64,000 nucleotides of DNA. It comes from Cycas panzhihuaensis. Its lineage: Eukaryota > Plantae > Cycadophyta. Made by a program: the position numbers and the translations under genes. The stretch covers positions 191,959,741 through 192,023,740 of the forward strand of contig CM041465.1 in the NCBI GenBank assembly GCA_023213395.1, given 5' to 3'. This document shows, piece by piece, positions 10,784 to 47,491 of the stretch (position 1 is the stretch's first letter; each line of letters starts with the position of its first letter). The notes below the pieces were generated by a model, which had not been told where the DNA came from, made no database searches, and saw nothing but the letters and a program-made list of their open reading frames with translations.

Positions 10784-10796
10784 GGCAACGGAACCA
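10784..10796 (-). other. Primer binding site complementary to the tRNA-Glu 3' end
   Basis: Minus strand TGGTTCCGTTGCC, 1 nt from the 5' LTR. Plant tRNA-Glu ends in GGCAACGGAA-CCA. Confidence 0.8.
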
Positions 10797-10797
10797 A

Positions 10798-11579
10798 TGT
10801 TGACTTATGAGGTGTCTTATTACACTTACAAGATACCTCTTACACTTGTCAAGGTTACACAGTGCTATAGTCTAGTTCAGGATTCACATACATTCCACAT
10901 ATATTTCATAGAATTCTACCACAATGGTATACAGCAGTACAGAAATCAACACATACTCAGCAATTCATCATCACAACACAAAGAATACACCATTTTCCAT
11001 GTAACTATTCCTTTTATTAAGTAATCAGTTTAATTACACAGAGGCTGGAATGCATTCTTGAGCATTCCAATAGCATACATTCCTTATGTTATACATGCGT
11101 ACCAACCGGCTATCATATGTGTTGGCTTCTGCACCTTTGCATAACTTTGATAGTCGGCTCTTACCCTAATCTGGTGGTTCATGCGTACCTCCTTAAGTAC
11201 TCATGTTGATACCTTTTGGCTGAAGGATTATGACTGCCTGTCATAACCGTACCCTTTTAGTCATACGTACCCTTTCATTAATCACTTGTTTAGGTACTTA
11301 ATTAATTATTCTTTATATCCGTACATCTATACATACGTCTGGCAACTCCACAAGACTTCACTAGTCCCTTTAAGTCATGCATACCGCCTGGCTCAGATTC
11401 TGCTGGTTGGTACATATCTCATATGTACCGCCCTGCACGCACCTATCATACATACCGAATCTTTGATTTCTCCATTGTTTTGCCTCGTGCACTGCCTGCA
11501 TCGGCCCCACTGCACAACTCAGGTTGCCTGACCTACCTCTGGTCCTCTCACAGCCATAGGATCATTTTATACTCCAACA
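10798..11579 (-). repeat. Gypsy-A 5' LTR
   Basis: Direct repeat of 1128-1958; adjacent PBS. Confidence 0.95.
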
Positions 11580-14722: not shown

Positions 14723-15899
14723 ATTCTATCTCTAAATTACAAAAATTTCACAATGAAAATTCATGCAAACTACTTACCAATTTACCATAATACCTTTAAA
14801 TGCTTAAAGGAACACTTGTTGGAGTGTTTGCCATCATTGTTATCCTCCAAATTATTCCAATGAACCCTAAACTATTCAAATATATAATGATAGGGTTTCA
14901 CTTAAAAAATTAAAAAAATTTGCCTCAAATCTTACTCAAATTTCATTATGATGCTTCTGATTCTTTTCTCAAATGCTTATCACTCCACAATTTCTTAAAA
15001 CTTTGATAAAATTCAATTGAAAATGAATTTATAGCTTGGAACATTTTAATTTTTTTCACCAAACTATTCCTTGAGCCATTTCTCAATGGAATGCTTTCAT
15101 GTAAAGCACTCAAGCCATTTTATAGGATGTTATTGGGGATGCTTCCTAAAAAGTAACTTGTATTTAAAACTTTTTGTTGGCATTTTAACTTTTTACTTTT
15201 ATGCTATTGTTTAAGGATTTTATAGGTCTTCGTAGAGATTCTTCTTAGTGTTGTTAAGTGGTTAATGTTGAGTTATGCATTTTTCTTTTATATTTTCTAT
15301 TTCTTTTTATTTTTGTATTTCTATTTTTAATGTATCAAAATTTTCTTGATAACATGATAACCTTGATTGTCCTTAATTTCAAGCAATACATTCATGGTAC
15401 AATCGACCAATTCCTCTGGCGATTTTTTATTGACTCTAATGATAGTCGGGTTTTAATTTACTATTATTTACCAATTTTAGCAACTATTGTCCATCTGGTT
15501 CTCTCAATTAAACTAGCCCATTATCAAATAACTATTAGATCACATATAGGCCTAACTAGCATATTTTTTATTTTTCTAGATGAGTCTTGAATTTTCCATC
15601 ATATAATAAAACATTATCACCTTCCTTAAATTGTTGTGATCGTAGGTGGCAGTTGTGCCACACTTTTTGTTAATTTTTTTTTTTTTTAATAACTTGTATC
15701 TAATTAACCATTTATCTTATTTCTTCTAATTTGATTAATTACAATAGCCATTTCTTAAGAGATTCCTCATCTCTTAGGTTGCATACATGGGCTATGAAAA
15801 TGTTTGGTGTCTCAAACTCATAAGAAATAATAACCTCTAATCCATAAACCAAATAAATATAAAAATAAAGTATAAGCAAAGAAGAACTTTGATAATATT

Positions 15900-18524
15900 T
15901 ATTAGAAATAAATACCCAATACAAGTAGAGGATCATAGAAGAACATGAGATATTAAAGATATATATGTGAACAAATAAAAAATAATATGTATAAACATAT
16001 AACACAAGCTACTTATGAGAAATGACCACTTTCAATTACAATATGTCAAGCTAATACATATTTATAGTATATATCGACTTTTGGTTATCTAATCATATTT
16101 CATAAGACGCTTGGTTAACCAATGATTGATTACAGAAAGAAGTGTATGCACCATGACTCCTTAGTGCACATCAACATGGTAATTACATCAATTTAGTATT
16201 TCTATGAATTAACATCACCCCCTTAATATCTAATTCATGTCACATAATTGCTTCAAATATGATGTTAGGTCCATATAAAAGCTAAACATCTACTGAAGCA
16301 CATGGATAACCAGTTGTTGTACCTATCAATCCTCTATAATAGCTTTTCCATACATAGTTCACCAATATTTATCTGTTAAGCAACCTTCACTTGCTCCCAT
16401 TTTGCTTGTTTTTGGTTCTCCTAGTTAAACACATGCCTGTAAGAGAAAAAGTTGAAAACCCTAAGCCCCATCCACTACACCATGGAACAAACTTGCTAAA
16501 ATGGTTATCCAAGTAGAAATATATGATAAAACACCTCTTTTTTTAAGTGCAAGCTCTATTTTAATACCATGTTAAACTAATGTCTAAATTTCACACCATG
16601 AAGATTGCACTAAAAAATCTTCAAACCATATCGCGTAATCACTCGTTGGAAATTCTCATGAGTTAACTTTGTAACGTAATTGATGACACTCAATTCTGAT
16701 GGTATACAAGGGGGGTATCGCAGTTTTCATATACATAGGTATTCTTTTTGGTGAAAAGAAGTGAAAAAATAAATAAAAATTAATGACTTTTATGTTTGGT
16801 CCCTAGTTGTATCAAAACACCCATCTGACCTGATGGGGGGCTTTGCAAACTTCAAAACACTTCATAAATTGATTTAATTTAATTTCATAAAGTTTATAAT
16901 TTTAAAACATAAAAAATAATTTTTTTAGCCATCATTTTTTAACGTAGACATGTGCATGGATGTGGAGCTTTTGATGACCCCCACATATAAATTTTCCACT
17001 AATTTTTTATCCAAATGCCTCAGAGACGTATTTTTGGATGTTAGAAATTGAACAATGTCACATTTTACCAAAAACACACCCAACATTGAGTTTTGTTTGT
17101 TGGGAGGCACCCAATCACTCATGAAGTCACACAAACTTAATAGTAATCTACCCAATATGTAATAGAGCCACCCAACCTATGAATATAATATTAATTCATC
17201 TTTATAGGCTGCCAACTTAGTGATTTATCATCTATAGATATTTTAAAATCCAATCATAAATAAAACATGGGAAAAAGAATGATGTAATTCATCATCAGAA
17301 CTATACAAACCCTTGATTTTTCCTTAACATACTACCATAGCTCTCATAACAACTTGCATACATTGTTTATGTCTCAGATCTCTCATTTTTTCATCACAAA
17401 CCCCATCTATCTTTACTCCAAATTAGAAATAAGGGAGTACACCATAATTTATGAGAGATATATTAAACAAATTAGCCACAGATTATCATCATCAAATAAC
17501 AATCAATAACCCCCAACAAACCTATAAACCTTTGTTGCACACACAACTATCTAATAATTTCTTCATATGAATAGGTTCTTTGACGATTAGAAAGATTTGT
17601 TTCAAAGAACCAACCATGCTAGTATCTTCACATGAGCCAACGAACCATCTATTGCTCCAAACCATGCCACAACACCCTCCTTATCAATCATGATCACTTC
17701 ATCATATGATAGAGGAAACAATGGCCTACCCCCCACATCATTGGCTTTAACAGTGTGATTAGGCTTATATCTAAGGTCCCCCTCTCATACTCACATGTAA
17801 GACTTACATGTGTATTGGCAAAACATGCACATAAATAGTTTAAAACCAAATAAAAACATGTGATAAACCTCTATGAGATTTGAGATAATTGCAACACCCA
17901 TGCTCTGACTAGATTTTTACGTGTAAATGCCAACATACTTTAGGCTCATGACACCAACATGCTCCAAGTGGCCTACAAAATGCTATTTAAAATCATCCAT
18001 AACCTGTATAAAACATCACTAGATAAATAAGTAGACTACCACCTCACTGATCACAAATAGGCATACTTAAAACAAGTTTAGGATAAACCCTTAATAGGTT
18101 GACATACTCATAGTCTTACAACCTAATTGGGGTTAAAACTAGCTTAAATTAGGGCTCCAATACTAAATGTGAAAATAGGATATGAGTAAAAAATGGCTCA
18201 GATACCACTTGTTAGAAACAAATACCCAATACAAGTCCAAGATCATATAAGACTATGAAATATTCAAGACATAAAGGTGAACAAATAAGGAATAATATGT
18301 ATAAACGTATAACATAAGATACTTATGGGAAAGGATTACTTTTAATTGTATTGCATCAAACCAATACATACTTCTAGTATATATCACTACATAGTTGTCC
18401 AATCACAATCTAGGAGCGATTTGATCAACTAATGATGGATTACATAAAGAAGTGTGCACACTATGACCTCCTAGTACACATTAAAAGGGTGATTATATTA
18501 ATATAATATTCTTGTGGATTAATA
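15900..18524 (-). mobile_element. Small non-autonomous LTR element (TRIM/LARD-like) inserted in the Gypsy-B integrase
   Basis: ~315-bp direct repeats at 15900-16214 and 18210-18524. PBS TGGTATCTGAGCC (minus, 18195-18207, tRNA-iMet type). PPT TTAAGGGGGTGA (minus, ~16215-16226). No recognisable coding; TSD not clear. Confidence 0.8.
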
Positions 18525-18534
18525 TTACCTAACA

Positions 18535-23402: not shown

Positions 23403-24861
23403 TAAAAGAGATTAATGTTATAAGATCATTAATGAATAACTAAAGTGACTATAGGAATAGAGTTAGTGAAAGTCACTTAAATAAATTGCATTTCATGTGC
23501 ATTTGAATGTAATTTCGGGTTCATGTCACTTGGAGGGAAAACTCTTAACTCTCAATTATAAATAACAAAATTATATGGAGTGGAATAATTTTATTCTCAC
23601 CTCTAACTTTGCTCTTTATTCTTGCTCTCTTCATTCTTTATTCTTCTTTGCCAATGTGTGAGTGTGAGTGATTTGAGCACTAGACCCATATTACCCCCTC
23701 CTTCATGTGGTATCAAAGCCATGGGAGATCTTCTCACTTCATTCCACTAGCAAGGAATGACTTTTTGCCTCTCTTTCACTTTCCATGTGAAGTATAGAGA
23801 TTACATTTATATTTTAAATTTAAGGGAGATTTTTCATTTGATTTGCATTTCCAAAATATATTTATATCCTCTATTCATATGCAGCTTTTATGAGGATCAA
23901 ATCTACTCCTTAGAAGTAGTCTATCTGGCTTTAAAAATCTTTTGTATGAACTTTTTGAGTCTATAAGGAGAGATTCTAATGAAGTTTTTTCAAAAATCTG
24001 ACAGCCAGAAGGTGAGATGATGTAGTAAAGTTATTGGAGCAAAGTCTGACTACTTGCAGGTTGTAGAACAGTGATACAATAGTCATAGTGCTGACTGATT
24101 AGGCTATCGAAAGCCTCCAAATTATAGAAGTATGGTCGTTCCCTCGAGAAACATAAAAAAAATAAAATAAAAGTTACCAGAATTAACTAAAAATTTGTAG
24201 GGAGGGTCAACCAACCATGTGGAGCATTTTTGTCTTCTGGGTCGATCTCTAATTTGGCCCCAAAAGCCTCCAAATCACAGTAGTATGACTATAGTCCCAA
24301 TTGAGGGTTTTTTGAGAAATTATTTGAATCTTATAACTTTCAGTCAAAATTTCTTAAGGGGTTCAGTAGATTTTCACATCAGAAATCAATTGAATCTAGT
24401 TTCATTAAATTTCATTGAGTATTTTTGAAGATATCAGTGAAAAATTAGTTTTATCCCTAAGAGGTTTCATAGGAGTTTCAGTGAGTTTCGAGTCATTTCG
24501 AATGAGTTTTAAGTAATGCTTCTTTAGCAAAAGTTGAACGTTTGAACTTGATCTATCATTTAGTATGGTGAAGTTTTGAGCCGAAATGTTTCAGCCATTT
24601 CGTATGGTTGTACGACCATACAAGAGTTTTTGTTACCATATTTAGGATTCTTACATCATTACTAACATTTTCTCTTTTGGCTAAAATTTAGTTTTTGTAA
24701 AACATTTTAGAGTTTTTGCCTTTTTTCCCCTTTCTTCATAAAAATTACAAAGAAAAAAAAAGGGTTTTCATATATTTTTCAAAAATTTTTAAGCAAAAAC
24801 TCATTGTAACAGTAAAACACTTAGATCGAAGCAATATCCTATGTTTTTACTTAGCATCTTG

Positions 24862-24915
24862 CATGATTCTTATATTGACATACTCATTCATGATTCTTAT
24901 ATTGACATACTCATT
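24862..24915. repeat. Perfect 27-bp tandem duplication
   Basis: CATGATTCTTATATTGACATACTCATT x2. Confidence 0.9.
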
Positions 24916-27900
24916 TGATTAGCACTCTTTGGGATAAAGGTGGGTACATAAGCACAAAAGCAAGTATAAGAGAAGCACACATTCGTTGTTTCAGTTTTAG
25001 TTCTTCAATAACATGTACTCAATAACATTCATTAAACGTTTCTCTTAAAATGAACACATTTCATACGTTTTTTCTGCTATCTTAGGCTTATTCACAGGAC
25101 AGAATTCGATGTTGTAAAGGAGGTGTGGATTTCAAGGTGGGTACTTAATCGATATACTAGTAGAGTGATAGGTTAGCCATACCTATGGGCTCCAATAAGG
25201 GATCATCTTGATAACCAGTCTAGACAACTAAAATCTTAATGCAAGATAAAATTTAGATGGTCTGATATCCATCATAACCTTGGGTGTGTAGTACCATTTG
25301 ACTCTTTGAAGGAGGTGTATCACCACTTAGAGGTGAACTAGGTGAGGACTGGTAATACCTGGGCTCTATTGTGACTTGGATTACAACACTAAGCATAGGT
25401 GTGCATGTCATGAGTGAAGGCCCTAATTTGTTATACTAGAAGGCTTAGGTGTCATATCAAACACCTCAACTACATTAGGACATAAGATTGAGGTAAGTGG
25501 TTAACACATCATACACTACTCTTTGCCTTAAGTTACATTCTTGCATGATCACTTGTACATAATTCATCACCAGTGATTGATTGTGCTTCTACATCATTCA
25601 TTGTATTGGAAAACCCTGCTACGTCAGGAGTAATTGCCATAAGTGTTAGTGGCCATTCATCATTGCTTGCTTCCTTCTCATCATAAGAATTCATTCACAT
25701 ATCCCTATTGTGCTAGGTGTACTAACCACACATGTTAGTGGCCAACACATTCATCTTCTCTTCTGCTTCTTTCTCATCTTTACCATATCATCATAATTTA
25801 AGTAGAATGTCAACTACATATTAAAAGACAAAGAAAATTGGGACTTATAGTTCACTGAAGTAAAAAATACTGCAAAGTATAAAGGCCTTTGGAAAGACCA
25901 CTTACAACTTGTTTCTCGGCTACCAGGAATGGGCTTGGGCAAGTTGACTCAGGTAAGTACAGGTATGCTTCTATCCCTTGCCTTTATTAGTTCTAGGAAA
26001 GGTAGGTTGAAGCACTTCATCTACATCACACGATGATTGACTCATTGCATGACCACTATACATTTGCTGTGTGACTATATTGCATCACAATACTTTTAGC
26101 CTATGACGATCTGGGGATACATATCCCATGGCACTCCACAACCCTCTTTTATGCCTCCACAATGTCCCCAAGTACCATTCGACTTTTGTAGCCTAATTAC
26201 ATCACCTGTTAATGCATCATGACCCATGACACCTTACCTAGGTTTGGTTGTTGTCCCCAGTCCATTTGTTGTCTTTTGGGTAACCTGTCGCCTCCATTTA
26301 CTTATCCGTTGTGACCTCCTTATGCCCCCCAGCTCCTTCTTACCACCTGGACAGAGTATTGTGTTTTTTGGGGCTCGAGTTTCCCCTCTTTTAGAGATTT
26401 CGAGCTCATCTTCCTTTCCCTTTTTCTATGTGTCTGTCGCACTGCATTAAACTTCACAGTACTGCTTTAAACTTTGCGATACCACTAAGTTTACCACGGG
26501 GCGATTTTCCATATTTATTTTTTTAAATTACCTATGGTTAATTTCACATTATTGTGAAATTGCTACATTGAAACAACTTATTCCTGGCCCAGGTCGAACC
26601 CTAATCGCTCGATTGAGCTAGGGTTGGGTTTAAAAACCCAAAAACCCCCTCATTTCATCTCTCTCTCACTGATTTTTTCCACTACTTCCTCCAAAAATGC
26701 CCTGCAAACAGAACTAAATTTGCTACATCTGCTTCTCAACCAGCTGCCAGCCTCTTGCAACTCCAGACACATGACTGCAGGCCTACAACATGGTTAGCCA
26801 AGAGAAGGTCATGCTCTAAACGCTCCATCAACTTTCAGCTATCTTTCTTGCTCTAGTTTTCTTCCTACTTGTTGCTCCATTTGGGGTTTTCACTTGCAAA
26901 CCCCATAGGGTTTGCTTCTCTATCCAATTTCATAGGTGGGTCTGCCTTAGATCCACTCGTAGTAGGTACCTCTAAGTCCACTCTTTGCTTTACTTTATTT
27001 AGGCAATATAAGTACTACTTGTCAATACTTTTTGCACTAATTTTCCCCCTTCTTTCTACTGCAAACAGGAGGTAAACCCTCCCCTCTTTTGCATGTCTTT
27101 TCCTTCCCTTGACTCCTTCTTGGTTTCTTCAAGGAGGCAGCAAGGGAGAGGCACCTACAAAGAGTGAAAGGAGCTAAAGGTGGGGTCTTGCACCCAATGA
27201 GCCTTCTCCTTAAGTGCAATCGCCTTCTCTCCTCACCTCTCCCTTCTCTGTACCTTCCTTGAGTTCCCAAAGGGCTATTAAAAGATAGATCATCACTGGT
27301 AGTAGCATAGGCAGCCTATTGTTACACCTACAACCAGCCCAGCATATCCTACATGGGCGGGGTTCCACCCCCCATTCTATATTCTCCTGTGTTACTTGGT
27401 TAGAACCTTGTAGAACTTGTAAAAGTTGCATGTTGCAGCTTTTGTAACTTTGACAACATTTACAACATTGTTTGTTGTTTCTTTGCTTGCACTTCTAGAA
27501 ACTTGTTGCATTTGTCTCACCTTTCATCCTGGTACTTAGGGGTAGCGTGGAGCACTTTTGACTTAGAGGGTTAGCCATTCCAAGGCTAGCCGCCCTCCTT
27601 CCCTCTCTTTCCCACTTTTTTCTGCATTGTATACTAAATAACATACAAGGTGCAGAGAGTGATATTGGTGGTGAATATATTTCTTTTAATTAAGATAGTG
27701 TTGGGGTTAATGCTTATCACCCCACTCATACCTTCCAACTAGGAGTGCAAACCTCACTCTCATTAATTTACACATGTGGGTACTCACATGTATAGGTAAG
27801 TATAAGGTAAGGTTGATTTGATTTAAGTTCATTTGAGTTAAGTTAATTTATTATTTTATTGTTATTTGAATTTTAGAGGTTGAAGAGTTTCCCTCCTCCT

Positions 27901-28580
27901 ACAAACTATATATTTTAAGGGGTGTACAACCCTACTGTCTTTAGACACCACCTTCTATTGGACATTTGTAATGCTCTCTCTACAAAAATGGATTGAATAT
28001 AAAATCTCTTATGTTTATGCAATAATGATGTATTGATTAATGATTATTTGTTTATGTTCTACCCTGTTTTCCATTATATTATTTTCCTACATTTAGTATC
28101 AGAGCAAAGGTTGCCAAAGGTTGTTGGGCTATTGCATCTCCATTTGAAGTTTTTTAAGAGTAAGAAGATTTACTAGCATTTTTTAGGCAGATTTACTCAT
28201 AACAAGAAAGATTGGTTATATTCATTTTCTGAAAAGTTTATTAGAAGTTTCTTGTATTTTTTACTAAAGATCTAATTATTCTTGAAGATATACTCGTGAT
28301 ATAACAAACATATTTCAGATTTGTGCAGGTATATAGCTACAAATAGTAAATATCAAGTTTATATCACTCTACAGAGGTTTTATCAATAACTTTTATATAT
28401 TTTTATCAAATATTTGACATTTTTCAAGCATATTTTGTTTAATTATCCAATACTTCTTTTAGATCTATGCAGGAGCACAACTACAAGCAATATTTATTTA
28501 AAGTTTTCTTCAAATCTACCATATATTCTTCATATCTACTTGTTTTAACAAATATTTGACCATTTTTCTGGTTTATTTTA

Positions 28581-28720
28581 TTTATATCTGTAATATTTAT
28601 TTTAGATTTGTAATACTTACTTCATATCTATAATATTAGCTACATATCTGTAATATTAGCTATAGATCTGTAATATTTACTTTAGATCTACAATAGTTAC
28701 TTCAGATCTGCAATATTTAT
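28581..28720 (+). repeat. 20-bp minisatellite x7 (consensus TTCAGATCTGTAATATTTAC)
   Basis: Seven consecutive 20-nt imperfect units read directly from the sequence. Confidence 0.9.
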
Positions 28721-29719
28721 TAAAGTTTTCTTTTAGATTTATAAATTTTATCACATATTTGACCATTTTTTCAAGTTCTTTTTCAGATCTATAAGTTTTT
28801 GGGACATATTCAGCCTAACGAGCCATATATTATAGCAGATCTACCTACTGGAAAAATCAGTTTGAAGCTTCAACTTGTGTCGAAGAAGATCTCATCTTTG
28901 GAAGTCTACTTTCTGCTACAAATCTGCCACAGCTGTTTACCAGGTTCTTCATAGTCTATTCAAATTTAAACATATATTTCTTGATTCTCGGATACATCTA
29001 CTCCAATATACATGCATTTCATTTATTTGATATATTTCTGTCAATATATTTAAAAAAATTTCTGGTTTCATTTGTGGCTCCACTAAATCACCAGTTTTTC
29101 ATGGTTTTCTATATAAATATAAAAAAGTTTTTGAAATATCTCTTTTGTGATATACATATTCTTTTTCAACTAAAAAAAAGGAAAAAAAACTCAACATTTT
29201 TTTTTGTCATCTTTTCTTATTTTGGAATAAACTTATAAGAATAAACTGCATTCATTCCTGCAACTATTAAAGAGACAAACAAAGTTATTTTTATTTGAAA
29301 CAAAACCAGCCAACTCCACAATAGTGGGATTGATACTAGTAAATTGGTACTCTGGTAAGTAAAGCAAGTCTTATTTTCTTGCATTTAAAACAAGTCAAAA
29401 TATTGTATTTTTCTTTGGAATAATCCCTAAAATTTATCTCTGCAACCGTTATCATAAGTATCTCAAAAATTTGAAGGTCCTTTGAAATAATAGAATGCTA
29501 TTAAGTCAATGAAATAACAACTATTATATGGATACCATATCTTTCACATATGATTAAAAATACAATGTTAGACAAACGATCAAAAATACAATATAAACAA
29601 AAAGTATTGTGAAGATCATATTCTATTTGCAACGCTTTCATCATTATTTGAGAAATCATTAAATGTTGAGAATCTCATCTTTGGATATAGTGCTTTATAT
29701 CTGAAAACCATGCACTCAA

Positions 29720-30157
29720 GTTAAAGCTCCAAAAAAGGCTTTGTATACTCATTCATCATTTCAAAACCGTTTCTTAATTTTGTTAACATAATTGATAGCT
29801 TGGTCTAACTCAACTGGCTATTTCTTTGGGAGATGGTCATCCTCAAGTGGAAGTGTAATTTCATAGCCTTTTGGCAGGAAATTACTAAAGTCCAAAATAA
29901 GAGCACGATGGCCCATAAATAAATCTTTCACTTTGGCAATAACACCAGTTGTATATTTAAGACTTAAAATCTTTCATGACTTCAAGAAACTCATCATATT
30001 TCTCTTTGTTATCCTGGAACATCTCTTTGATAGCCTTGAGATAGGCTAAAGCATCATCAGTAGTTAGCCTCTTTGGCTCTCCCGAAGCTTGAAGTGACTC
30101 TCTGCGAAATGGCCTTCTAAATTTAGCTGCTACTAAAAGCTCCTCACTTCTTCTTAA
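29720..30157 (-). pseudogene. SNL: Captured SIN3-like (SNL) fragment: complete PAH1 and start of PAH2, no introns
   Basis: [106 protein letters not shown], typical plant SIN3-like PAH sequence. Confidence 0.93.
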
Positions 30158-30324
30158 TAGTCTCGATGAAACAGTGTACCCAACATAAAGCTCTGTTGAT
30201 GAAATTGGCAATGCATTTGTGATGTGCTTTGTGGGTCGTGATAGGAGTCAACTGTGTGTATATGCCAGTGTCAATGTACATTGGATAATAGTTTTGGGGA
30301 TTTGATCATGTGTCTTGCGGCTTT

Positions 30325-30720
30325 CTCAATGAGGCACATATCGTAGAAATCCTTGTCACCTAGTGTGAACTCTGCCAGAGTAACTGGAGGAACCCCCCCA
30401 GCATTGTTGCATTTCAAGATGTTTCCATAGTCGCTTGTTTCGTAGGACCCCACTCCGGATGCATAAGAATTACACCCCATTCTACCCTAGAAACAACCCG
30501 ACCAGCTCTCTAATGTGGTTACTCTGAGGGATTGTCTGAGGCTTAGAGTGAAACCCCCTCCCTCCAATACTCCTCCTCCACTCCCTATTAGAATAGGCCA
30601 GATGGTGTACCCACATTTGTTTAATAGTGTGAACGCAGTTCCCCTCACCCCACCTCCTAGCGAAAGTATAACGACAACAGCTATGTGGACCTCTAATAAT
30701 ACTCGAAGAAGAGATGCCAT
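30325..30720 (-). pseudogene. Captured thaumatin-like protein (PR-5 family) 5' half, including signal peptide
   Basis: MASLLRVLL...AFTLLNKCGYTIWP...GGGFTL...WSGCF*GRMGC...GSYETSDYG..LKC..AGGVPPVTLAEFTLG..DFYD. One in-frame stop at the conserved W; truncated after DFYD. Confidence 0.93.
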
Positions 30721-30963
30721 TGTTAGTCTCTGATAATGCAACTACAGCACTCCCAATAGATTTATCTAACCAATAATCAATATAACAAAGAGAGAAGCCA
30801 GACCAAAGAGAAAGAAACAAATATCTCTGATAAAGCATTTTCGATCAATTGTAATGCCAGAATTGGCTACAAAAAGACTAACGGTTCAGCAAATCTACTC
30901 ATCATTTGTCTGCGTTGTTAAATGTCCTCTTTGCTACTTGCTCATCCTCAACTTTTCCACCCA

Positions 30964-30979
30964 ATTTTGGCGCCAAAAT
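30964..30979. promoter_or_regulatory. Perfect 16-bp palindrome containing E2F-consensus sites on both strands
   Basis: ATTTTGGCGCCAAAAT; TTTGGCGC matches TTTSSCGC. Lies beside a CpG-rich patch (~30990-31078). Confidence 0.35.
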
Positions 30980-31190
30980 ATGACCTCTTAGGCGACGGAG
31001 ACACTCAGGGCGATGTGTTGCAGAATGCGAAAAGTGGTAGAGTCGCGGCGGACGGCGATAGCGGGGCGACGCGGTGCACTTTCTAAAAAAAATTGAATGT
31101 TTTTTTATTTTTTCATATTTTTTATTTTATAAAGTTTTAAAATTTTATTTGTATTATATAAAGTTTGAATTATGGGGTTTAAAAGGCTTA

Positions 31191-31262
31191 AGCCCCCTTT
31201 GGCATTTAGCCTCCAGCCCCATGACCTCTCCACGTGACCATAACTTATCTTTAAAGGGGCCA
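31191..31262. promoter_or_regulatory. Conserved symmetric internal motif, copy in element E
   Basis: AGCCCCCTTT...GCCCCATG-N7-CACGTGAC...AAAGGGGCCA; homologous to 54591-54666 and 60626-60699. Confidence 0.65.
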
Positions 31263-32386
31263 ACAACTTTTATAAAACTTTTTCTTTTTATTTTTTTAAT
31301 TTTTTCATTTCATATAGGGTAGCTAGAAAATTTTTACCATATCTTTTAACTGGGTCATCAATTTTTGATGAAACCTATCCCATTGCTTCTAGAATTTTTT
31401 TAGGTATGATTTTGACTAGTCATATGACCTATTTGGAGGTAATTTGACCCATTTTCAGATAGTTTAAAGTCAGTTGTTCATTTTTAAAGCCATTTCGAAC
31501 TATTTTCATAAAAACTCTTTTTTATTAGATTATATTTTATCACTGGATGATTATTTTCTACCCAAATCTATTATACAGCAATTTATTATTAGCAAACTTC
31601 ATTGCCATCTATTTATTTTATTTTTTAATATTTATTTTAATAATTATTTTAATCACCAAAAGTAACACTTTAGTGTTTTTTAGCACTTTTTAAATATTTT
31701 ACCATAAAAGTATTTGTTGTCATTTCTAGTATAACTTTTCAGTTTTACATCAAAATTTAGATCCATCAATTTCATTAGGAAGCTGACTCACTCCTTTTCT
31801 AACTGACACTATTTTTTATAAGTTTTAAAGTGTTTTTACTGATTTTCAAATCCATGAAAGTTGAGGTACATAATAGCCTCAAATCTGCCATTATTACACA
31901 TTTTTTATATATTATTTCTCAAAGTTTTCAATTGAAAAGTATATTGAGCAACATTCTAAACTATAATTGATCATTTTACAATATTCTATAAGTCTTTTAT
32001 TAGCCTTTTATAATATTTTAAGCCCCAGGCTCCCGTTAGGCCTAAAAAATATGATTGTATCTTTGGTTCCTTTGATATTGATTTGTAGGAACTCATTTTC
32101 AAAATGGTTAGTTCCATTGAATAGTTCTTTCATTGATCTTCATACTAGTATAATTTCACTTTATTTTGACTTTATTTAGTATAACTTTGAAGCTGTTAAA
32201 CTTGAGCATTTAAGTATATCCTAACAGAAATTAATCATCAAGCAAGTGATAAGCCAATTGCACCTGCAACTTATTTCAAATTTTATCTAAAATTATATCT
32301 TATAAGTTAGTCATATTTGTTGATTTATCGAGTTTTTTGACTTGGTAAAAACATATTCTTTTTTATGTACTAAAGTTCTCGGTAAA

Positions 32387-33110
32387 ATGGTAATCAATCT
32401 TGATCAAGTACAATTTCCTATATTTGATGGCCATAATTTTTCACTATGGCATAAAACTATGTAAAATTATTTTATTACACATGATCTTTAGAACTACTTA
32501 CAAGATAAATATGATGTTAATATTAAGAAAAGTATTAAAAAAGACAATGAAGCCCTAGCTTTAATATTTTGCACTATAAATGATGATGCCTTTTCTAAAG
32601 TTTGTGAACTAACAACTTCTAAATCTGTGTGGGACATTTTAATTTCTACTTATGGGGGAGATACCCTCAATGAATTTAACATTGATGTTGAGCATATGAG
32701 ACAGATACCAGAACATGTGGATTGTCATGAAAAGGTTAAGGAAGATTCAAATCAAATGCATGATCATCTTGTTACACAAGAACTTGATCCTTCATTTGAG
32801 GGGGAGAGATATGATTATACGACAGTTGTTCATAACATAAAGTTTTCAGAAGACAAAGTTCAAGTTCAAAGTTTTCTTAAAGTTCTAGTTAACAAAGTCA
32901 AAGTTGCATCCACACCTCCATATTTGAATCAAACTTCATTTATTTACAACTTTTTTATACCACTCAATGGCAAAGACACACACGTTGCAAAAAGGATGAA
33001 GCAAGTTGATAATGATCAAGCCAAAAGAAAGTTTTTTTTTTTTTTTTTTAAGTACAAATTCCACAAGTTTAAAAAGAAGATATTGTTTGTGATGACCATT
33101 AAGGGGGATA
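32387..33110 (+). pseudogene. Element E gag N-terminus fused to an RNase-H-tail-like end (internal deletion of pol)
   Basis: MVINLDQVQFPIFDGHNFSLW...KKDNEALALIF...TTSKSVWDILISTYGG, similar to Copia-D gag (MPKFDG...KKDNEALTLIF...TTSKEA). Ends KFHKFKK.LFVMTIKGD at the PPT. Confidence 0.8.
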
Positions 33111-36100
33111 ATGTTGGGGTTAATGCTCATCACCCTACTCCCACCTTCCAACCAAGAGTGCACACCGCACTTTCATCAATTTACACATGTGGGTACTCGC
33201 ATGTGTAGGTAAGTATAAGGTAAGGTTGATTTGATTTGAGTTTATTTGAGTTAAGTTAAGTTATTATTTTATTGTTATTTGAATTTTAGGGGTTGAGTAG
33301 TTTCCCTCCTCCCCCAAACTATATATTTTAAAGGGTGTACAATGCTGATGTCTTTAGACACCGCCTACTATTGGACACTTGTAATACTCTCTCTACAAAA
33401 ATGGATTGAATACAAAAGCTCTTGTGTTTATGCAACAATGATGTATTGATCAATGATTATTTGTTTATATTCTGCCATGTTTTCCATCATATTATTTTCC
33501 TACAGATAGTTACTTTCCATATTGCATACTTGTCCCACATATATTTGATTCCCCTTGGGAAAGGGCAAATCTCATTTGGTTGTAGGTTTTCCCATTGCAT
33601 TCTTGAGGAAGAAGGAGATTCCATTCCAGATATATTCCCCTCCTTTCAACGGCTACTTTCTTTTGTTTTTAAAGTTATAAAATAGAGTTGTAATCATCTT
33701 TATATTTCCTTATGTTGCATTTCCTTTGAGTTCCATTTTTATTTTCAGGGAAGGTAAGGAAGCCTCCTTCTTCGCCAGCACTATTTTTGTTGTGCCATCC
33801 ATGGCTAAAGAAGGACAATAATCGTAAACATAAAAATGGTAACGCTACTTTGGCCACCAGATTCCATGTACACCTCTCTTTTTCTAACTTTTCTCTCTTT
33901 ACCCCCCTTTCCCTCATTGGAATGTTGTTTGGTAAAAAAGAAAAGGAAGAAGATTGGTTTAGATCTCTTGTACTTCACTTGCTTGCTTGTTTCTTTGCAA
34001 AGTGCACATAGTAAAAATCTATTCATTTGCGTGCATATACCTCTCCCATCCAGTTGCATTATCACTTAGCAACTTCGCATTCTTTGCACGAGCTTTGTAT
34101 CATGTAGCGATTCCTTTTGATCTTATTTTCTTGAATTTAAAAGACAATGAGAGTGAGGTTGTATGCATAGGTAGACGAGAGAGAGAGTTTTATATTACTT
34201 TGTTGCCTTAAAAAGTAATCTCTTTTAAACATAAGGACATAACATTGCCACATACATCATACCCTCGCCTTATCTTTTTCCCGTGCACTAAATGAAGACA
34301 ACCTTTCTTGTTGAGTCGCCACTACTAGGATCCTCCTTAGGTTTGTCACCTTGAGAGCCTCTCTCCGAAGGTTGTTCACTATGTCTTCCTTGTGTCTCCA
34401 AGCTAGACTTCTCTAGTTCGGGGGCTTTAGGTTAACATTCAGCTTATGAAATTAGCCATCACCCTTGATCCTTCACGTTGCAAGCTGCCTCAGGCTTACA
34501 TGTATGATTCTTTCCCTTTTCTTATTAAGGGGCATCCTTTCCACATCCCTCTTCATGTGAGGAGTCATTCCCTCGCCTCTTTCCTCCCTCCTTCGGCCAT
34601 CCAAGGATGGGAGGGCTCTTTTTAAGGTTACTCGGGAAACCAAGGAGATCCCTCATCCATCCATCACTCCATATCGAGGAAGAGTTACCTCAAAGGAGTT
34701 TGTGTGCCATTTGCAGGTCTCGTTCTAACGCACGAACGCCCTTTGTGGGTGATTTCTTTCACTTGTCATCTTAGGTCCATAGCCATCTAAAACTATTAAT
34801 TGTCTGTCTTGATCTCATTCGAGTTTAGTAACCCCCCTAAGAGGTGTGATTCCATATCTTACACCCCTCATACCAACAACTACTACTATGCCTGCTTCAA
34901 GAGGAACTGCCCTAGCTACTCCTACAAATGCTGCTAGAAAATGACAATAGGAGATTGATGATGAAAAGATTTGCATAGGAAGTTTGTTAGTCATTGATCT
35001 TTCTTTACATAACTTAATTGTTGAAAAGTAATATGATACTACTTAGAAAGTACTCGAAGTCCTTCGAAGAACTTTGAGACTAAGTCAGACCTCAAATTCA
35101 TTCATCTAGTGTTGAAAATGAATAAGCTCAAAATGTAGAAATACTATCAACATCCTTTGACCTATCAATAGGCTATTGACAAAGACTTCAAGACCTAATA
35201 TATTACTTTAGTATTCTTAATCCAATCATGTCTACATGTCCTTAATTACAAAAACTTACTTGGAAGTCTTCAGTTTAGTGGCACATTGAAGACACTCAAC
35301 TTCAAAGCACTTTCCAAGAAGTTCATATAATTTGATAAGATCTTTAATACACAACTTTGTAACCTCTAATCAAATATAGCCTTTGAAATGGAAGAAGAAG
35401 CTTATTGCCCAAAGAATCAAGGTTCCTCTCATGGCAGAGGATATATCCGAGCAAAAGGAATGAGAAAAAATAAAGGAAATCATCTACAAGGTCAACAATA
35501 CCCTTAGTCTTAGCCTCGATAATCTCAAGCTCAAGGGACACCTCAGAAAAATACAAGATAGTTAGGCCAAACCAATATCCCTTATGAGATTCGTAATTGA
35601 ACCATTATCTGTGAAAGGTGTGATAAGAAAGGGCACCTAGCAAAAGATTACAGAATAACCACCCATAAGTTGGCCAAGTTATAGGGCTTACAATGTCAAA
35701 CAAACTTGTGAAGAACCATTTTATGGAGCAGGATTTGCATAAGCACACATCCAAAGGATTAAGGGATCTTCATCATATAATGCAGCTAACCAATCAAAGA
35801 GGTACTTTAAAGCTCATTGTGGATACGCCACTTGTGAATTTAATTCACCAATGCCTCCTCCACTCAAAGTTGCAAATAACGTTGCCTCAAATATTTCAAC
35901 ATGGATCATGGACATTTGAGCCATCCAACATATGACTTGCAACCATAGTCTCTTTTAGACATTTGACTTTAATGTTCAAAGAGTTGTTCATATGGCTGAT
36001 AAATCTCAGGAACCTATCGAAGGAATTCGTAACATTCACCTGAAATTTGCAAGCTTAATAGACTTTATATTACTTGATGTCTTATATATTCCTAATCTGA

Positions 36101-39100
36101 AATAGAACCTACTCTCCCTGTTCACAGTCATCTCCTATGTATTTGACTTGAGTGTAACCATGGATGACTAGACTCTCCATGCCATTCACCCTCCATCAAA
36201 TAAAATGGTCTTGACTAGAAACCTCATTGGTAAACTCTTTTGTCTAAATAGCTCCTCATCTTCTAAAGCCAATTATGTTCAAAGCCTTAGTACCAATGAA
36301 GAATTTACATTCAATGTTACCTTGACACACCTAAAGCTATCCCAAGAAGCTCTTTGGCATGCTTGCATGGGTCATATTCATATTAATTGACTAAGAGATC
36401 TTTATCACACCCTTCCAAGTCTACCAACGTTCTCTTCAAAACTCTTTAAATGTGAGGCCTACCTAATTATCAAATCTCCTATACATTTGGTATACTCTAA
36501 TATATGTAGACCATTGCCTATTCCATCATTAAAGCATAAGTGGTATTACATCACCTCTATTAATGATTTTACCAAAAAAGTGTGGGTAGCTTTTCTAGTT
36601 AAGAAAGATGAAGCATTTAATGTCTTCTAAGCATTCAAGGCCCAAACTGAAAAAGACTTAGGCTAACAAATCAAATGTCTTCTGACTGATAATAGTGGAG
36701 AATCTACTTTGAATGGGTTTGAAAATTATATTTGAGACCATGGGATCAAGCACTAAATAACAGTCGCAAGTACCCCCCAACAACATAGAGTTGCCAAGTG
36801 CATGAACAAGAGCATGATGAATATCGCTAAAATAATGTTGATGTATAAAAACGTACCTACCTACCTATGGGTCGAAGCCATTTAGATAATTGTTTACTTT
36901 ATCAACGTTGTTAGCCCATCTAAATAAGGACCATCACCAAATAAAAAGTGGTCAGGACAAGCCCCCACTATTCATCACTTTAGAATCTTTGGCTCTATAT
37001 GTTATGCCCATTTACTATATGAAGATTGAAATAAACTCTAACTAAGGGCACTTAAAGGTATCTTTGTTGGATACCCTATGGACAAGAAATGGTATAAGGT
37101 CTTCGTACCCTCACAACGAAAGATAATCATCACCAGAGACATTATGTTTATAGAGATAGAGGATCAGTTACTTAAATTGGACTCCAAAACACCTTCGCAC
37201 CACTATAATCATGCCACAAATTAGGATGTTTAGATTCTAAAATTTAGGAGGCATGGGAGATACATATGAATTACTCAAAATATTAGAATTTAACAATAGA
37301 GCCCTGGAGGATATGAGTTGTGACTCCCAACCAATGAGTGCACATCCAACACTATCTTTTAAGAATAATAGAGTTACTAAGGACAAAGCCATTGCAGAAG
37401 AATCATTGTCTCCGCCTTTAGTTGATAAAGGCAAAATAGTGGTAGAAAGACCATCTTTTCCAGATATATCAACATCCTCCATCCTATATATCTAAAATAA
37501 TCCTTTTGGGGATTAAGACAAGAACCAAGAGATTAAGGAAATGAGGATCTCATTCCCAACTCGAGAATCTCATGAAGCCTACCAGTTCAACAAGGACATA
37601 TGACTTAATGAATTGGGTAAAACTGGCACTCAAAGTACCCATAAAGCAAAGATATAGGAACCATTTTGTACTGAGCTTGAACTGATAGAATTGCATCTTA
37701 CTCTCAATGAAGAACCTCTCTCATACCAGGAAGTTGTGAAACACATAGTTTGGAGAAATGTAATGAACAAGGAATACCAATCTCTCATCAAAAATAGTAT
37801 ATGGAAGCTCATTGATCTACCACTTGGCAAAAAGTTAGTTTAAAATAAATGGGCATTCAAAAATAAATATAGTTCAGATGGCATCTTGGATAAACATAAT
37901 GTAAAGTTGGTAACTAAAGGATTCACACAAAGGGAAGGCATCAACTACACTAAAGTCTTTGCATCTACAACAAAGTAGCCTACAATTAAAACTCTTGTGG
38001 CCTTGGCTGCTCAACAGAGTTGGAAAATCCACCAACTTGATGTTAAAATTGTATTTCTCAATGGAGATCTTGAATAAGAAATTTACATGGCTCAACTAGA
38101 AGGATACGAAATTAACATTCAAGAGAATAAGGTTTACAGGCTTAAAAGGTCCTTATATGGCATGAAACAATCCCCTCGTGCTTAGTTTGCTAAGTTGTCT
38201 GAAAGAATGAGGTAACTTAGATACAAGGTTTGTGACTACTAAGATATTAATGTAACACTGTTTATTAAGTACTAAAAGCACAGTCACTTATCACATGATC
38301 TCCATGGACGACATGCTGGTAATGAGGAATAGTAACTAGACAATAAGCTAACTAAAAAAGGACCTTTGCAAAACATTTAAATTTTCTAACCTCAAGTTGA
38401 TAAAATATTACTTAGGAATTGAAGTAACATAAAAGAATGGCAAAATTTTTCTCTTCCAAGAAAAATGCATCAATGATCTTTTAATAAATTTGTAGTTAGA
38501 AAATGTTTGACCAGTGGCTACATCTATGGAACCTAATGCCAAACTCTCAGTTGATGATGATACTAAGGATACAGATGTAACACTCTAAATACATCTTCTA
38601 GGTAGTCTCATTTATAGTACTAACATAAGGCTAGGTATTGTACACTTTATTAGCATTCTTACATGATTCATAACAAATCCTAAGTAGAATCACTGGTAAG
38701 TTATAGTACTAGTGTTGAGATACCTGAAGACGACTAACAAATGTATTATGTTATATGAATCCAATGATGAGTTCAAGCTCTTTTCATACATAGACTCATA
38801 CTTTATAGGGGATAAAGGCATAGGGAGATCCACATCTGGGTGTGCAACATTTCTTAGGATAACACTAATATCATGGAGAACTAGATGGTAGAAGATAATT
38901 TCAGACTCAAGTGTTGAAGCTAAATATATTACTACTACTGAGACCAACAAGGATGTGATATAGCTTAGAAAATTATTAGAAACATTGAATATCACCTAAA
39001 TAAGTCCTACCAGCCTACTTATGAATAATCAATTAGCAATCCACATGGCTAAAAATCTTGTATTTCATGACCGTACCAAATATATAAGTACGAAAGTCCA

Positions 39101-40010
39101 TAGGATTCAAGAACTAATTCATGATGGCATAATTCAACTAAAATACTGCCCCACAGTAAATCAAGTGGCCAATATCCTCATCAAACCACTGTAGAGGGTG
39201 AAGTTTGAACAATTTCGAAGGTAGCTTGACCTTAAAGCCCCCATCTCTAATTGATTGAAGGAGATGACAATAGGACCATCATACTCTATTCCATTCATGA
39301 AAATCCCTTATGGGCGCAAAGGATAAGAGTATGTCTCAACTCTATCCTATTTATGGAAACCCATTTTGGGCATGGAAGGATAAGGGTTATAGTAGTTTTA
39401 GAAAATTATGACCTGTGAAAACCAGAAAAGACATGGGGGATGACTAAATGGTATATGGAGACTCAGCAGATCAAGCTACATATCTTATTTGAATATCTTA
39501 GTTATCGGGCTTCATTTAAAGCCACCTACGCTATTTTGTTTATACAAATGGGAGAATAAATTTGAGAAAGTTTGTGGGTTTTCTTCCCTATGAGGGTTTC
39601 CCACAAAAGTGTTCAAGTAGATATTTCAATCTAATAAGAGACTCAAATAAATACCTCATATAATAGATTAATCTCTTTAGAATTGCCTTCTACCATTAAA
39701 GGGGGAATTGAAGAGATTAATGTCATAAAATTATTAGTGAATAACTAAAGTGACTATAGGAATAGATTTAGTGAAAGTCATTTAAGTAAATTATATTTCA
39801 TATGCATTTGAATGTAATTTAAGGTTCATGTCACTTGGAGGAAAAACTCTTAACCCTCAATTATAAATGATAAAATTATATAAAGTGGGATAATTTTATT
39901 CTCACCTTTAACTTTGCTCTATATTCTTACTCTCTTCATTCTTCATTTTGCTTTACTAATGTGTGAGTATGAGTGATTTGAGCACTAGATCCGTATCACC
40001 CCCTCCTTCA

Positions 40011-41340
40011 TGTTATACATTAGTCAAGACTCACCTCCTCCTCCTTGATCTCTTCCCCAAGTATTCTTCCCTCTTAGGTTATTATAACAATCTTTTGTTG
40101 TATTAGTGTCGTATATGTGGCATGGATTTTCTTTATTTTTTGTATTTTTAGGATTATAAAATCACTCATTTGTAACATGTATATTTGTATCATAAATGGG
40201 CCACTATTTTAAATCTTTTATAATATTAGTTTTTGGATTCAAATGCCATTCCTTTGTGTTGTGGGTCTCTTCTTTACATATGTGGCACCACTTTAGTTCA
40301 ATGCTTGTATTAATTCTTCTACTACTAATAGGTTTATCATCCATAGGCTTCTCCTTCTTAGCTTATAGGTTTGACCTTGAAATTTCTTCCTTTAACTTCT
40401 CTACTTTTGATGGTTCCTCTTTTATTATTACCTTACATGTTTTCTTAGCTTGTAATTCTTTACTTTCATTATGTAATATTTTTAATGTATTATCTTATGT
40501 TCACATTTCTTTTGAATCAAACTTCTTCTCAAATCTAATGGCCAACTCCTTGGTCTTTGCAAATGATTTATCCGTACACTACTATAATGCACTTCTTAAC
40601 CTCAGTTATAACCCATTGATAAAGTAGGTTTTCAATAAAAAATTAGAAAATTTCTCTCCACCTGTCAAATTCATTACAATAATGGACATGCAACTAAAGT
40701 TATCTAACACCAATTCTATCAATTGCCTACTTGTGTAATGACTTCATTACTATGTAACTTTTGTAACCTCTCATGGAATTCATCAATAATTTACTATTGG
40801 GTTTATTTTTCACATCAACTCCTTATAACATACCAATGGTGCTTGTCTTAATATGCACACAAATCTTCCCTTAATATCTTTCTCATCTATGATCCCTCTC
40901 ACTTTAATCACATTCTTGAACAGATATAGATGTTCAACAACATTTGTGGTTCCATTAAATATCAATTAATTCATTGTACTCTCATTGTAATAACTTGAAT
41001 ACGCCATCTTGGGAGGTGTTTTTAATCTTGGTATCCCTCCTTCTACTATATTAACTTTTGGTAGTAACCCTTCCTTTAATGTTATCTCTACCTCCTCCTT
41101 AAACAATGGGTTATTCTTTGGGGCTTTCACTTGGTTTGTTTACACAACTCCTAGTATTTTTATTGTTAAAGGTGTTATTATAAAAAATGAATCGTCTCCT
41201 AATTGTACTGGTATATTGAATAAGTTTCTTATAAAATAATTCTCTCATCCCTTGGGACCACCACCTGTATTTTTTTTGTCACTACTTATGCTCTTTGGGA
41301 TTTCTTCTAGTTCAAAATCTCCACTTCTCATCAGAATACC
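40011..41340 (-). pseudogene. Gypsy-B gag N-terminal part
   Basis: LIFNGTTNVVEHLYLFKNVIKVRGI.DEKDIK; YFINGL; WCHIC knuckle near 40285. Homologous to Gypsy-A gag. Confidence 0.8.
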
Positions 41341-46530: not shown

Positions 46531-47491
46531 CAGGGTATCTAGATAATGAATTTGCTTCTAGCCCAAGCTTAGTGAAGGTTGGGGAGCTTGCTACCCCATT
46601 TTAGGGTAACCAGAGAAGGATCTGCTAATTCTAACCTCATAGATTTTAATGCTAAGAAATAGTGTAAGAACAATTTACATATAGAGACCTACAAATGATT
46701 TCATAGGGCTTAAAGCATAATGAACTCCCCTATACCAGCCTTAGGATGCTTCGGGTAACATAGATGGAGAGCTAGAATCATAAAAACAAGTTTATATTCC
46801 ATGTCCCTATGAGATCTGCACTTATAAAGAAATTATAATTTTTCATGGGAAGGGGTTGAGGAAGCATTATTTTGCCTACTTTTATTTTGATACGTTAGCC
46901 TCAAGTCCTAAAAGGACATTGGGTCAAGGCTTGGTTATGTAATCCCCTACAACATGGTGAAGTGTAAAATATTAGAAGGCATGAAAAGTCCTCTATATCA
47001 AATCAAAGAGTATAGGTTTTAGCAATAATATGTAATGTGGTGAAAATCCTCCAAAGTTTCAAAGCGGTGGTATTCTATAATTTCACAAAATCACAAAATC
47101 TTGACTTCATAGTTTTAAAATGTTTAGTCACTAATCATAATGTTGTGGGGTTAACAAAGTAAAGATGAATTAAAGGAAAGTAAAAAAGTTCCAAGTGGTC
47201 ATATTTTGTAGTTTCATAATTTTGATAGATTTGTATCTTTGTGGTCTTTAGATGTTTGATTATCAGTAATGTTATGGGATTAATGAAGAGGAAAATAACT
47301 ACAAACAATGGGCCTAGGTTTTGGAGTTTACGCTTTTATAAATGAAAGAAAGGGTCTAATGGCATGAGAAACTACAAAGTAAAGTACAAAGATGAGCTAA
47401 GGCAAGATTTTAAGCAGTGGGCCTAGGCATCCAACTTTGTAGTTTTACAATAGATGAAAAGGTTAACAAGGATGAGAGGTTGCAAAACTTG

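What the first reader, a model, noticed from the sequence alone, without database searches (positions are those of the whole stretch)
29720..30720. Intronless thaumatin-like :: unknown :: SIN3-PAH chimera captured antisense inside LTR element E
Seen: a thaumatin-like 5' half (signal peptide to DFYD) is followed by ~170 bp of unidentified sequence. Next come SIN3-like PAH1 and the start of PAH2. All are on the minus strand, inside a TSD-flanked element that has lost pol. Neither fragment contains an intron. Known: plant SNL genes are multi-exon in this region. Inference: serial capture of spliced mRNAs by RT template switching, which is exon shuffling by an LTR element.
Basis: partly seen in the sequence, partly recalled or inferred. 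Interest (0 to 1): 0.8.

Follow-up and report, generated by a model that had tools for sequence, protein, structure and literature searches.

The report
Retrotransposon carrying dead host gene scraps
A crippled plant retrotransposon carries, back to front, a patchwork of broken pieces from at least three host genes, likely copied from spliced messenger RNAs, which makes it a clear example of a gene-capture process already described in plants and not a new working gene.

Summary
Element E (27699-33504; 393-bp LTRs, K2P 0.108, GATAG duplication, gag remnant, no pol) is a non-autonomous Copia-type element on the + strand.

The SNL piece crosses three intron sites found in other plant SNL genes. 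One site has host-lineage support; another lacks its intron in a genomic paralogue. Intron loss in the thaumatin piece is untested.

Every coding piece has stops, thaumatin and SNL are out of frame, and 81 of 100 transitions against putative transcripts show C/G decay. Several junctions recur in diverged DNA contigs, so the patchwork was likely copied. RNA-mediated capture is likely. Plain minus-strand template switching would give sense cargo, so the orientation needs an extra step.

Multi-gene capture by LTR elements, in either orientation, is in print, and capture is reported at about 400,000 fragments per gymnosperm genome. Verdict: real, dead cargo, a new member of a known kind.

The parts
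27694..27698 (.). left target-site duplication (GATAG)
27699..28091 (+). 5' LTR, 393 bp, TG..CA
28092..28105 (+). PBS-like motif (resembles the initiator-Met tRNA site; consensus recalled)
28567..28757 (+). degenerate 20-bp tandem array in the leader
28850..29205 (+). high-copy leader sequence left of the cargo
   Evidence: summed contig depth about 1,400-10,800 in X1 and X4
29248..29470 (.). unnamed repeated piece; part of it is matched by a long X24 contig; right edge approximate
   Evidence: loose ends at 29248 and 29389, DNA depth about 250-1,000
29496..29729 (-). 3'-most cargo piece: the end of a 1044-nt X24 contig (92.7% alike) whose last 11 unmatched letters look like a polypurine tract; either a host 3' UTR or the 3' end of another LTR element
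   Evidence: record 9 and loose end
29730..30171 (-). SIN3-like (SNL) piece: 11 nt of leader, N-terminus, PAH1, start of PAH2; no ATG, 4 stops, 5-nt frameshift at 29953-29956; crosses 3 conserved intron sites (30096/5, about 29956, 29773/2)
30172..30325 (.). unidentified 154 nt; present in other DNA contigs at 83-97%, two of them joined to the SNL 5' end; no X24 contig laid on its middle
30326..30735 (-). thaumatin-like (PR-5) piece: 15 nt leader, signal peptide, first about 100 profile positions; 1 stop, two conserved Cys read Tyr
   Evidence: record 12 (87.6%), 36, 58
   Evidence: (E 3.4e-9, 66% identity), record 13 (90.6%)
30897..30985 (.). unnamed piece; X24 depth 25 in this bin; joined to the CCX piece in X4 DNA contigs
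   Evidence: table 2, records 18 and 19; no protein hit in the one frame searched
30986..31075 (.). CpG-rich patch (62% GC, 13 CpG in 90 bp), the densest in the window; almost no contig laid on it
31075..31500 (+). high-copy leader sequence right of the cargo
   Evidence: summed contig depth up to 19,000
32387..32900 (+). Copia gag remnant (Pfam Retrotran_gag_2 at about 32516-32665), one stop near its start; no pol follows; right edge approximate
33099..33111 (+). polypurine tract
33112..33504 (+). 3' LTR
33505..33509 (.). right target-site duplication (GATAG)

Best explanation
E is a pol-less Copia-type LTR element whose leader holds, on the opposite strand, a dead patchwork of CCX, thaumatin-like, SNL and unnamed pieces that was likely stitched together by a retrotransposon reverse transcriptase switching between co-packaged spliced RNAs and was likely copied afterwards as a unit. 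Shown: the element's anatomy, three named donors on one strand, stops and a frameshift, C/G decay, and repeated junctions in other DNA contigs. Inferred step 1 (about 0.85): the SNL piece came through a spliced RNA. Inferred step 2 (about 0.6): the joiner was an LTR-element reverse transcriptase. Inferred step 3 (about 0.45, the weakest): the patchwork was first built in the sense direction in another LTR element, whose 3' end may survive at 29496-29729, and entered E back to front as a block. A reversed block would not bring sense polyadenylation or splice signals into E's RNA, so it would be tolerated. The cargo makes no protein; its only plausible activity would be antisense RNA or siRNA against the donor genes when E is transcribed (untested).
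For: Intron sites: of 79 loci, 40 have GT-AG introns at both the PAH1 and PAH2 sites and 8 more at the PAH1 site; the window has neither (many loci are redundant). Of 20 loci where exon 1 could be scored, 18 have GT after SRGE-like +2 nt, a third site the window crosses. Host lineage: a 1450-nt X1 DNA contig and a 2276-nt X24 contig show the same paralogue pattern (same end points, 19 differences each), but the DNA match ends 9 letters earlier, which I place at the PAH2 intron site (side 100 against 109). Separate long X24 contigs match each piece and run on unlike at the junctions (records 9, 10, 12, 13). 81 of 100 transitions are window A/T against X24 G/C (p 3e-10), but 72 of 155 and 69 of 151 against X1 and X4 DNA. 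Copies: X4 records 18 and 19 span thaumatin|CCX|unnamed and CCX|unnamed at 89% and 95%; X1 records 5 and 6 join the unknown to SNL; none of X1 depth 105-110 or X4 depth 30-39 at 29953-55 carries the 5 letters of the X24 contig. No Helitron hairpin at 35 of 35 CTRR-T sites, and none of 22 chance TIR pairs has a duplication over 3 bp. Step 3: purine-tract-like contig end, and 5.9 raw-read depth in bin 29562-29650 against 0 over SNL in X22 (about 4 molecules).
Against: The same X1 DNA contig has no intron at the PAH1 site (96 letters between, as in X24), so that site may not count in this lineage. Eight loci on contigs of 6.6-60 kb lack the PAH2 intron, and the two I translated are open across PAH1 too, so intronless SNL genes exist in plants. 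Introns of the thaumatin and CCX donors are untested. No contig ties the cargo to an E-type LTR, and no listed piece spans the stretch. No second LTR pair or purine tract of a nested element survives in the window. SNL differs from its X24 match by 3.9% (CI 2.2-6.4), not more than the 5.0% per LTR (CI 3.6-6.7), so arrival after E inserted is not excluded. Junction microhomology was not measured against donors. X24 is only guessed to be RNA, and organisms A and C may not be the window's species.
Confidence: 0.55

Rival explanations
1. Direct antisense capture in E: during plus-strand synthesis the reverse transcriptase hopped from E's minus-strand DNA onto several mRNAs in a row and back, which would lay all pieces antisense in one pass.
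For: 3 of 3 named pieces share one strand (1 in 4 by chance). The SNL and thaumatin pieces both run to their start codon region, as if the enzyme ran towards template 5' ends before jumping. No trace of a second LTR pair.
Against: Divergence from X24 contigs differs by piece (3.9, 7.3, 9.4, 12.4%; chi-square p 2e-4), which fits staggered captures better than one pass, though paralogy and GC content confound it. A bias to first exons is already reported for captured fragments (PMC13477047). I found no paper describing this route in searches.
Confidence: 0.15
2. A chimeric cDNA made elsewhere (LINE-type priming, or cDNA patched into a double-strand break) was inserted back to front into an E-family copy, which then served only as carrier.
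For: Explains orientation without special LTR chemistry. The 3'-most piece is the end of a transcript-like contig. Capture of spliced cDNA at breaks is reported in mouse (PMC4516963, search listing and start of abstract only).
Against: No A run of 8 or more at the cargo's 3' end (the nearest is about 290 bp further on, in the leader) and no clean target duplication. The look-alike A/T tracts at 29182 and 31085 are low-complexity (score 62 against a shuffle maximum of 59).
Confidence: 0.2
3. DNA-level capture from intron-poor genes or older processed pseudogenes (gap-repair filler, or a Helitron or Pack element whose ends are lost).
For: A genomic paralogue lacks the PAH1 intron; intronless SNL loci exist; many TLP genes are intronless (PMC7564728); the unknown 154 nt has no X24 match and could be non-exonic.
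Against: The PAH2 site is joined in the window but the genomic paralogue's match ends there. No Helitron or TIR ends. All named pieces are exonic.
Confidence: 0.1

Closest known systems
Maize Bs1 (LTR element with pieces of three host genes)
   Same: LTR element carrying pieces of three unrelated host genes (review PMC13317346, passages read).
   Different: Bs1 yields a transcribed and translated chimeric gene according to that review; here the pieces are antisense to the element, have stops and form no fused frame. The primary Bs1 paper was not held.
LTR-mediated retrocopies and multi-gene 'super' retrocopies (Tan et al. 2016, PMC5131818)
   Same: Partial mRNAs inside LTR elements, chimeras of up to four genes plus an Alu, further rounds of copying as non-autonomous elements (passages).
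   Different: Described in animals, with about 6-bp microsimilarity at junctions and mostly sense transcription; here microsimilarity could not be measured and the cargo is antisense.
Gene-fragment capture by maize Sireviruses (Muyle et al., 10.1101/777037)
   Same: Copia-type elements with exon fragments; 15% hold two or more; no orientation bias, so antisense cargo is ordinary (passages).
   Different: Those are full-length curated elements with siRNA and methylation data; E has no pol and no such data were available.
TE capture of coding fragments in gymnosperm genomes (Bao et al. 2026, PMC13477047)
   Same: About 400,000 captured fragments per gymnosperm genome, 13.68% of host TEs with two or more, bias to first and second exons, Copia examples (abstract, section 12 and passages).
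   Different: The main text has 0 occurrences of 'orientation' or 'antisense' and, in what I read, does not resolve intron loss case by case. The host here is only inferred to be a gymnosperm.

Membership tests
Non-autonomous Ty1/Copia LTR retrotransposon | Two direct LTRs with TG..CA ends and a 4-6 bp target duplication | tested here: met
Non-autonomous Ty1/Copia LTR retrotransposon | PBS after the 5' LTR and PPT before the 3' LTR | tested here: met
   tRNA-Met consensus recalled
Non-autonomous Ty1/Copia LTR retrotransposon | Copia-type coding remnant, no complete pol | tested here: met
   Retrotran_gag_2 E 5.4e-7; no pol family in 6 of 6 frames
LTR-mediated retrocopy (template-switch capture) | Host gene sequence between the LTRs | tested here: met
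LTR-mediated retrocopy (template-switch capture) | Precise loss of donor introns | tested here: inconclusive
   Three conserved sites crossed; PAH2 site supported in a host-lineage paralogue, PAH1 site intronless there; donor genes not available
LTR-mediated retrocopy (template-switch capture) | Microsimilarity at switch points | not testable with these tools
   Needs donor and empty-element sequences; a 3-nt overlap at the SNL|3'-piece junction is only inferred
LTR-mediated retrocopy (template-switch capture) | Cargo in the same sense as the element, as minus-strand switching predicts | tested here: not met
   Element on +, 3 of 3 named pieces on -. So E itself is not filed as a plain product of that route.
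LTR-mediated retrocopy (template-switch capture) | Further copies moved as a unit | tested here: inconclusive
   Junctions recur in diverged DNA contigs, but no link to LTRs is shown
Helitron cargo | 3' hairpin followed by CTRR before T | tested here: not met
   0 of 35 sites with a hairpin
Pack-MULE / Pack-CACTA cargo | Terminal inverted repeats with matching target duplication around the cargo | tested here: not met
   22 AT-rich 12-mer pairs, duplication at most 3 bp; longest inverted repeat 31 nt, low complexity
LINE-type processed pseudogene | 3' poly(A) tail and 7-20 bp target duplication | tested here: inconclusive
   None seen at the cargo ends, but both could have decayed
Functional chimeric retrogene (Bs1-like) | Open fused reading frame | tested here: not met
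   Stops in all coding pieces; thaumatin frame closes at 30273; SNL 5' part in another frame

The most novel reading that the evidence does not exclude
One reverse-transcriptase run hopped across four or more cellular mRNAs during plus-strand synthesis and wrote them antisense into a Copia leader. It fossilised a mis-spliced SNL isoform (the 5-nt loss equals use of an AG five bases downstream of the normal acceptor) and created an amplified family whose transcript is antisense to a chromatin co-repressor, a defence gene and a calcium exchanger at once: a mobile multi-gene silencing cassette.
Probability: 0.12. Interest if true: 0.62.

Novelty: new member of a known kind. Interest (0 to 1): 0.3.

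Why it matters
As it stands it is a well-preserved example of a known, very common process, useful as a test case: three named donors, a dated LTR pair and shared frameshifts allow the order of captures to be worked out once the genome is at hand. It would matter more if spliced cargo is laid antisense directly by an LTR reverse transcriptase, which the standard minus-strand model does not predict, or if the family makes small RNAs that affect SNL, thaumatin-like or CCX genes. It is not evidence of a new chimeric protein.

Tried and rejected
No whole genome is held, so copy counts, donor genes and dN/dS could not be done directly.

Run search: no RNA holder listed; not used as evidence on expression. 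Reads were laid only on 28850-31500, so LTR and gag depth are unknown.

A 19-nt LTR motif gave 0 matches in viral contigs. Rfam gave 2 matches, both far below gathering score. Pfam gave nothing credible for the unnamed pieces: 13 stretches scanned, hits at or near cut-off only for PAH and Thaumatin. One minus-strand frame of 30173-31084 gave 0 hits among 1.84 billion representatives; the other five frames were not searched there. The atlas was not searched.

A Pfam scan of the neighbouring small LTR elements returned no result and was not repeated. E's interior has no real look-alike elsewhere in the window.

A tree of 19 rows (1 of 19 chosen homologues skipped, plus the window row) did not place the SNL piece in any supported clade. 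The bacterial promoter scan does not apply to a plant.

Joints that link the left and right flanks (29160 or 29179 to 31106) were considered as cargo-free alleles, but they fall in low-complexity look-alike tracts and were not counted. Contig depth was rejected as a copy number: pieces that decayed more fall under the 80% cut-off.

Earlier-findings look-ups returned nothing.

Full report
1. The element. Two 393-bp direct repeats at 27699-28091 and 33112-33504 begin TG, end CA, differ at 39 of 393 columns (K2P 0.108) and are flanked by GATAG on both sides. A PBS-like motif follows the first and a purine tract precedes the second, both on the + strand. Six-frame Pfam found a Copia gag remnant on + near the 3' end and no pol family. 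E is therefore a non-autonomous Copia-type element with a leader of about 4.3 kb. It lies inside another LTR pair (23406-40013). No genome is held for this window.

2. The cargo. On the - strand, 5' to 3': a CpG-rich patch (30986-31075), an unnamed piece (30897-30985), a cation/calcium exchanger piece (30750-30887; the only hit among 113 candidates was CCX4, E 3.4e-9), the thaumatin-like piece (30326-30735; Pfam E 9.4e-19), 154 unidentified bases, the SNL piece (29730-30171; 450 hits among 637 candidates), and a piece at 29496-29729. In run X24, which is only guessed to be RNA, separate contigs of 979-2786 nt match the thaumatin, CCX, SNL and 29496-29729 pieces at 87.6, 90.6, 96.1 and 92.7%, and each runs on unlike at the junctions. 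So these are pieces of different transcription units.

3. The host. The SNL piece has the DQAINYV form of PAH2, found in 15 of the 117 hits where the motif could be read; these include Ginkgo, Araucaria, a liverwort and algae, while 96 have the EE..F form of the named angiosperms. The best tblastn score was the Ginkgo model, but the tree gave no supported clade. I read the host as a non-flowering land plant, probably a gymnosperm; this is inference.

4. Intron loss, for. Of 79 loci fetched with the Araucaria protein, 40 have GT-AG introns at both the PAH1 site (AQR|I) and the PAH2 site (KIK|T), 7 at the first only, 1 at the first with the second unscored, 5 at neither, 8 lack the second with the first unscored, 4 lack the first with the second unscored, and 14 could not be scored. 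Many loci are the same species. A third site after SRGE has GT in 18 of 20 scorable loci. The window crosses all three without an intron. In the host lineage, X1 DNA record 3 and X24 record 11 show the same paralogue pattern, and the DNA match ends 9 letters before the X24 match (side 100 against 109). Allowing for the one-letter offset seen in record 11, that is 29773, the PAH2 intron site (my arithmetic).

5. Intron loss, against. That same DNA contig has 96 letters across the PAH1 site, exactly as in X24, so it has no intron there. Eight loci on 6.6-60 kb contigs lack the PAH2 intron, and the two I translated are open through PAH1; I take them for moss genes, from recall. The thaumatin donor was not seen, and 10 of 19 barley TLP genes are intronless (PMC7564728, passages). 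Plant CCX genes are often intron-poor (recalled). An RNA route is thus well supported at one site, plausible at a second and doubtful at a third.

6. A suggestive detail. The window lacks 5 letters exactly at the PAH1 site. With the letters of X24 record 10, the loss equals splicing to an AG five bases downstream of the normal acceptor, plus one substitution. Slippage between two short repeats gives the same product, and the paralogue has no intron there, so this is a lead only.

7. The cargo is dead. CCX and thaumatin have one stop each, two conserved thaumatin cysteines read tyrosine, and SNL has no ATG, four stops and a frameshift. The thaumatin frame closes at 30273 and the SNL 5' part is in another frame; CCX and thaumatin share a frame, a 1-in-3 chance. 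Against X24, 81 of 100 transitions are window A/T for contig G/C, while against X1 and X4 DNA the ratio is even (72 of 155, 69 of 151). This is the pattern expected of methylated copies decaying away from a conserved transcript (established chemistry, inference here).

8. The cargo was likely copied. X4 records 18 and 19 span thaumatin|CCX|unnamed and CCX|unnamed at 89.4 and 94.7%. X1 records 5 and 6 join the unknown stretch to the SNL start. At 29953-29955 none of the X1 depth (105-110) or X4 depth (30-39) carries the five letters, and X1 record 2 crosses the site with 218 letters for 222 places. Caveats: differences under 20 reads in 100 were not listed, 3 indel rows and 7774 pieces were not shown, under half of X1 and X4 was read, and contigs are not copies. 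Flank depth is 10 to 1000 times cargo depth, so most users of these flanks probably lack this cargo. No contig links cargo to an LTR.

9. Mechanism. No Helitron end (0 of 35 sites) or TIR with target duplication (22 chance pairs) surrounds the cargo. I favour assembly by LTR-type template switching in another, oppositely oriented element, then entry into E as a reversed block. The grounds are thin: the contig behind 29496-29729 ends in a purine-tract-like run, and that piece has raw-read depth near the flanks' in X22 while SNL has none. Divergence differs among pieces (p 2e-4), which suits staggered capture, but paralogy and GC content confound it. SNL's 3.9% is no larger than the 5.0% per LTR, so that capture is about as old as the insertion or younger.

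10. What is known. Multi-gene LTR capture is described for maize Bs1 (review PMC13317346, passages) and in animals (PMC5131818, passages). Maize Sireviruses show no orientation bias and 15% hold two or more fragments (10.1101/777037, passages). Gymnosperm genomes hold about 400,000 captured fragments each (PMC13477047, abstract, section 12 and passages). PMC4516963 was seen only as a listing with the start of its abstract. I did not see the supplements of any of these; the capture tables of PMC13477047 and the orientation figure of the maize preprint may bear on how common spliced antisense cargo is. Eight literature searches did not show this particular chimera or a plus-strand capture route; the library lacks most subscription journals.

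11. Verdict. The feature is real and richer than reported, probably RNA-derived, amplified and non-coding. It is a new member of a known kind. Interest 0.30. The open point worth a specialist's time is how spliced cargo came to lie antisense.

Noticed in passing
window 30986-31075: Densest CpG patch of the whole window (13 per 90 bp against a mean of 0.64; O/E 1.7) at the 5' end of otherwise CpG-depleted cargo. One X4 contig skips 31013-31100. Could be a late addition or a methylation-protected start site.
   Followed up: partly
window 30964-30979: Perfect 16-bp palindrome that matches the E2F site consensus on both strands (consensus recalled); may be chance.
   Followed up: no
window 29998 (X4 loose ends): Three X4 contigs join the PAH1 sequence to a different sequence here, which suggests other SNL-fragment chimeras in the lineage.
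   Followed up: no
window 30416-30595 (X4 joint): One DNA contig has the thaumatin piece with 178 bases skipped, probably another decayed copy.
   Followed up: no
L002-L004, L007-L009, L012, L043: SNL genes on long contigs with no intron in the PAH1-PAH2 region, unlike the other land-plant loci; moss-like by recall. Possibly a lineage-wide intron loss or retrogene replacement.
   Followed up: partly
window 15854-18529, 47491-51611, 58527-61871, 52614-63116, 23406-40013, 1128-11579: Six more LTR-like repeat pairs (75-90% alike), several enclosing only 2.7-4.1 kb and some nested. Whether they also carry host fragments was not determined.
   Followed up: no
window 29182-29255 and 31085-31150: Similar A-run/core/T-run tracts flank the cargo block and match both as direct and as inverted repeats; weak significance because of low complexity. 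They could mark the insertion or an inversion.
   Followed up: partly
window 29350-29360 (+ strand): A splice-donor-like motif just before the cargo on the element's strand; if used, the cargo would lie in a leader intron.
   Followed up: no
L037, L053, L055-L057, L061-L064: Plant loci with short tandem or divergent PAH-only genes.
   Followed up: no
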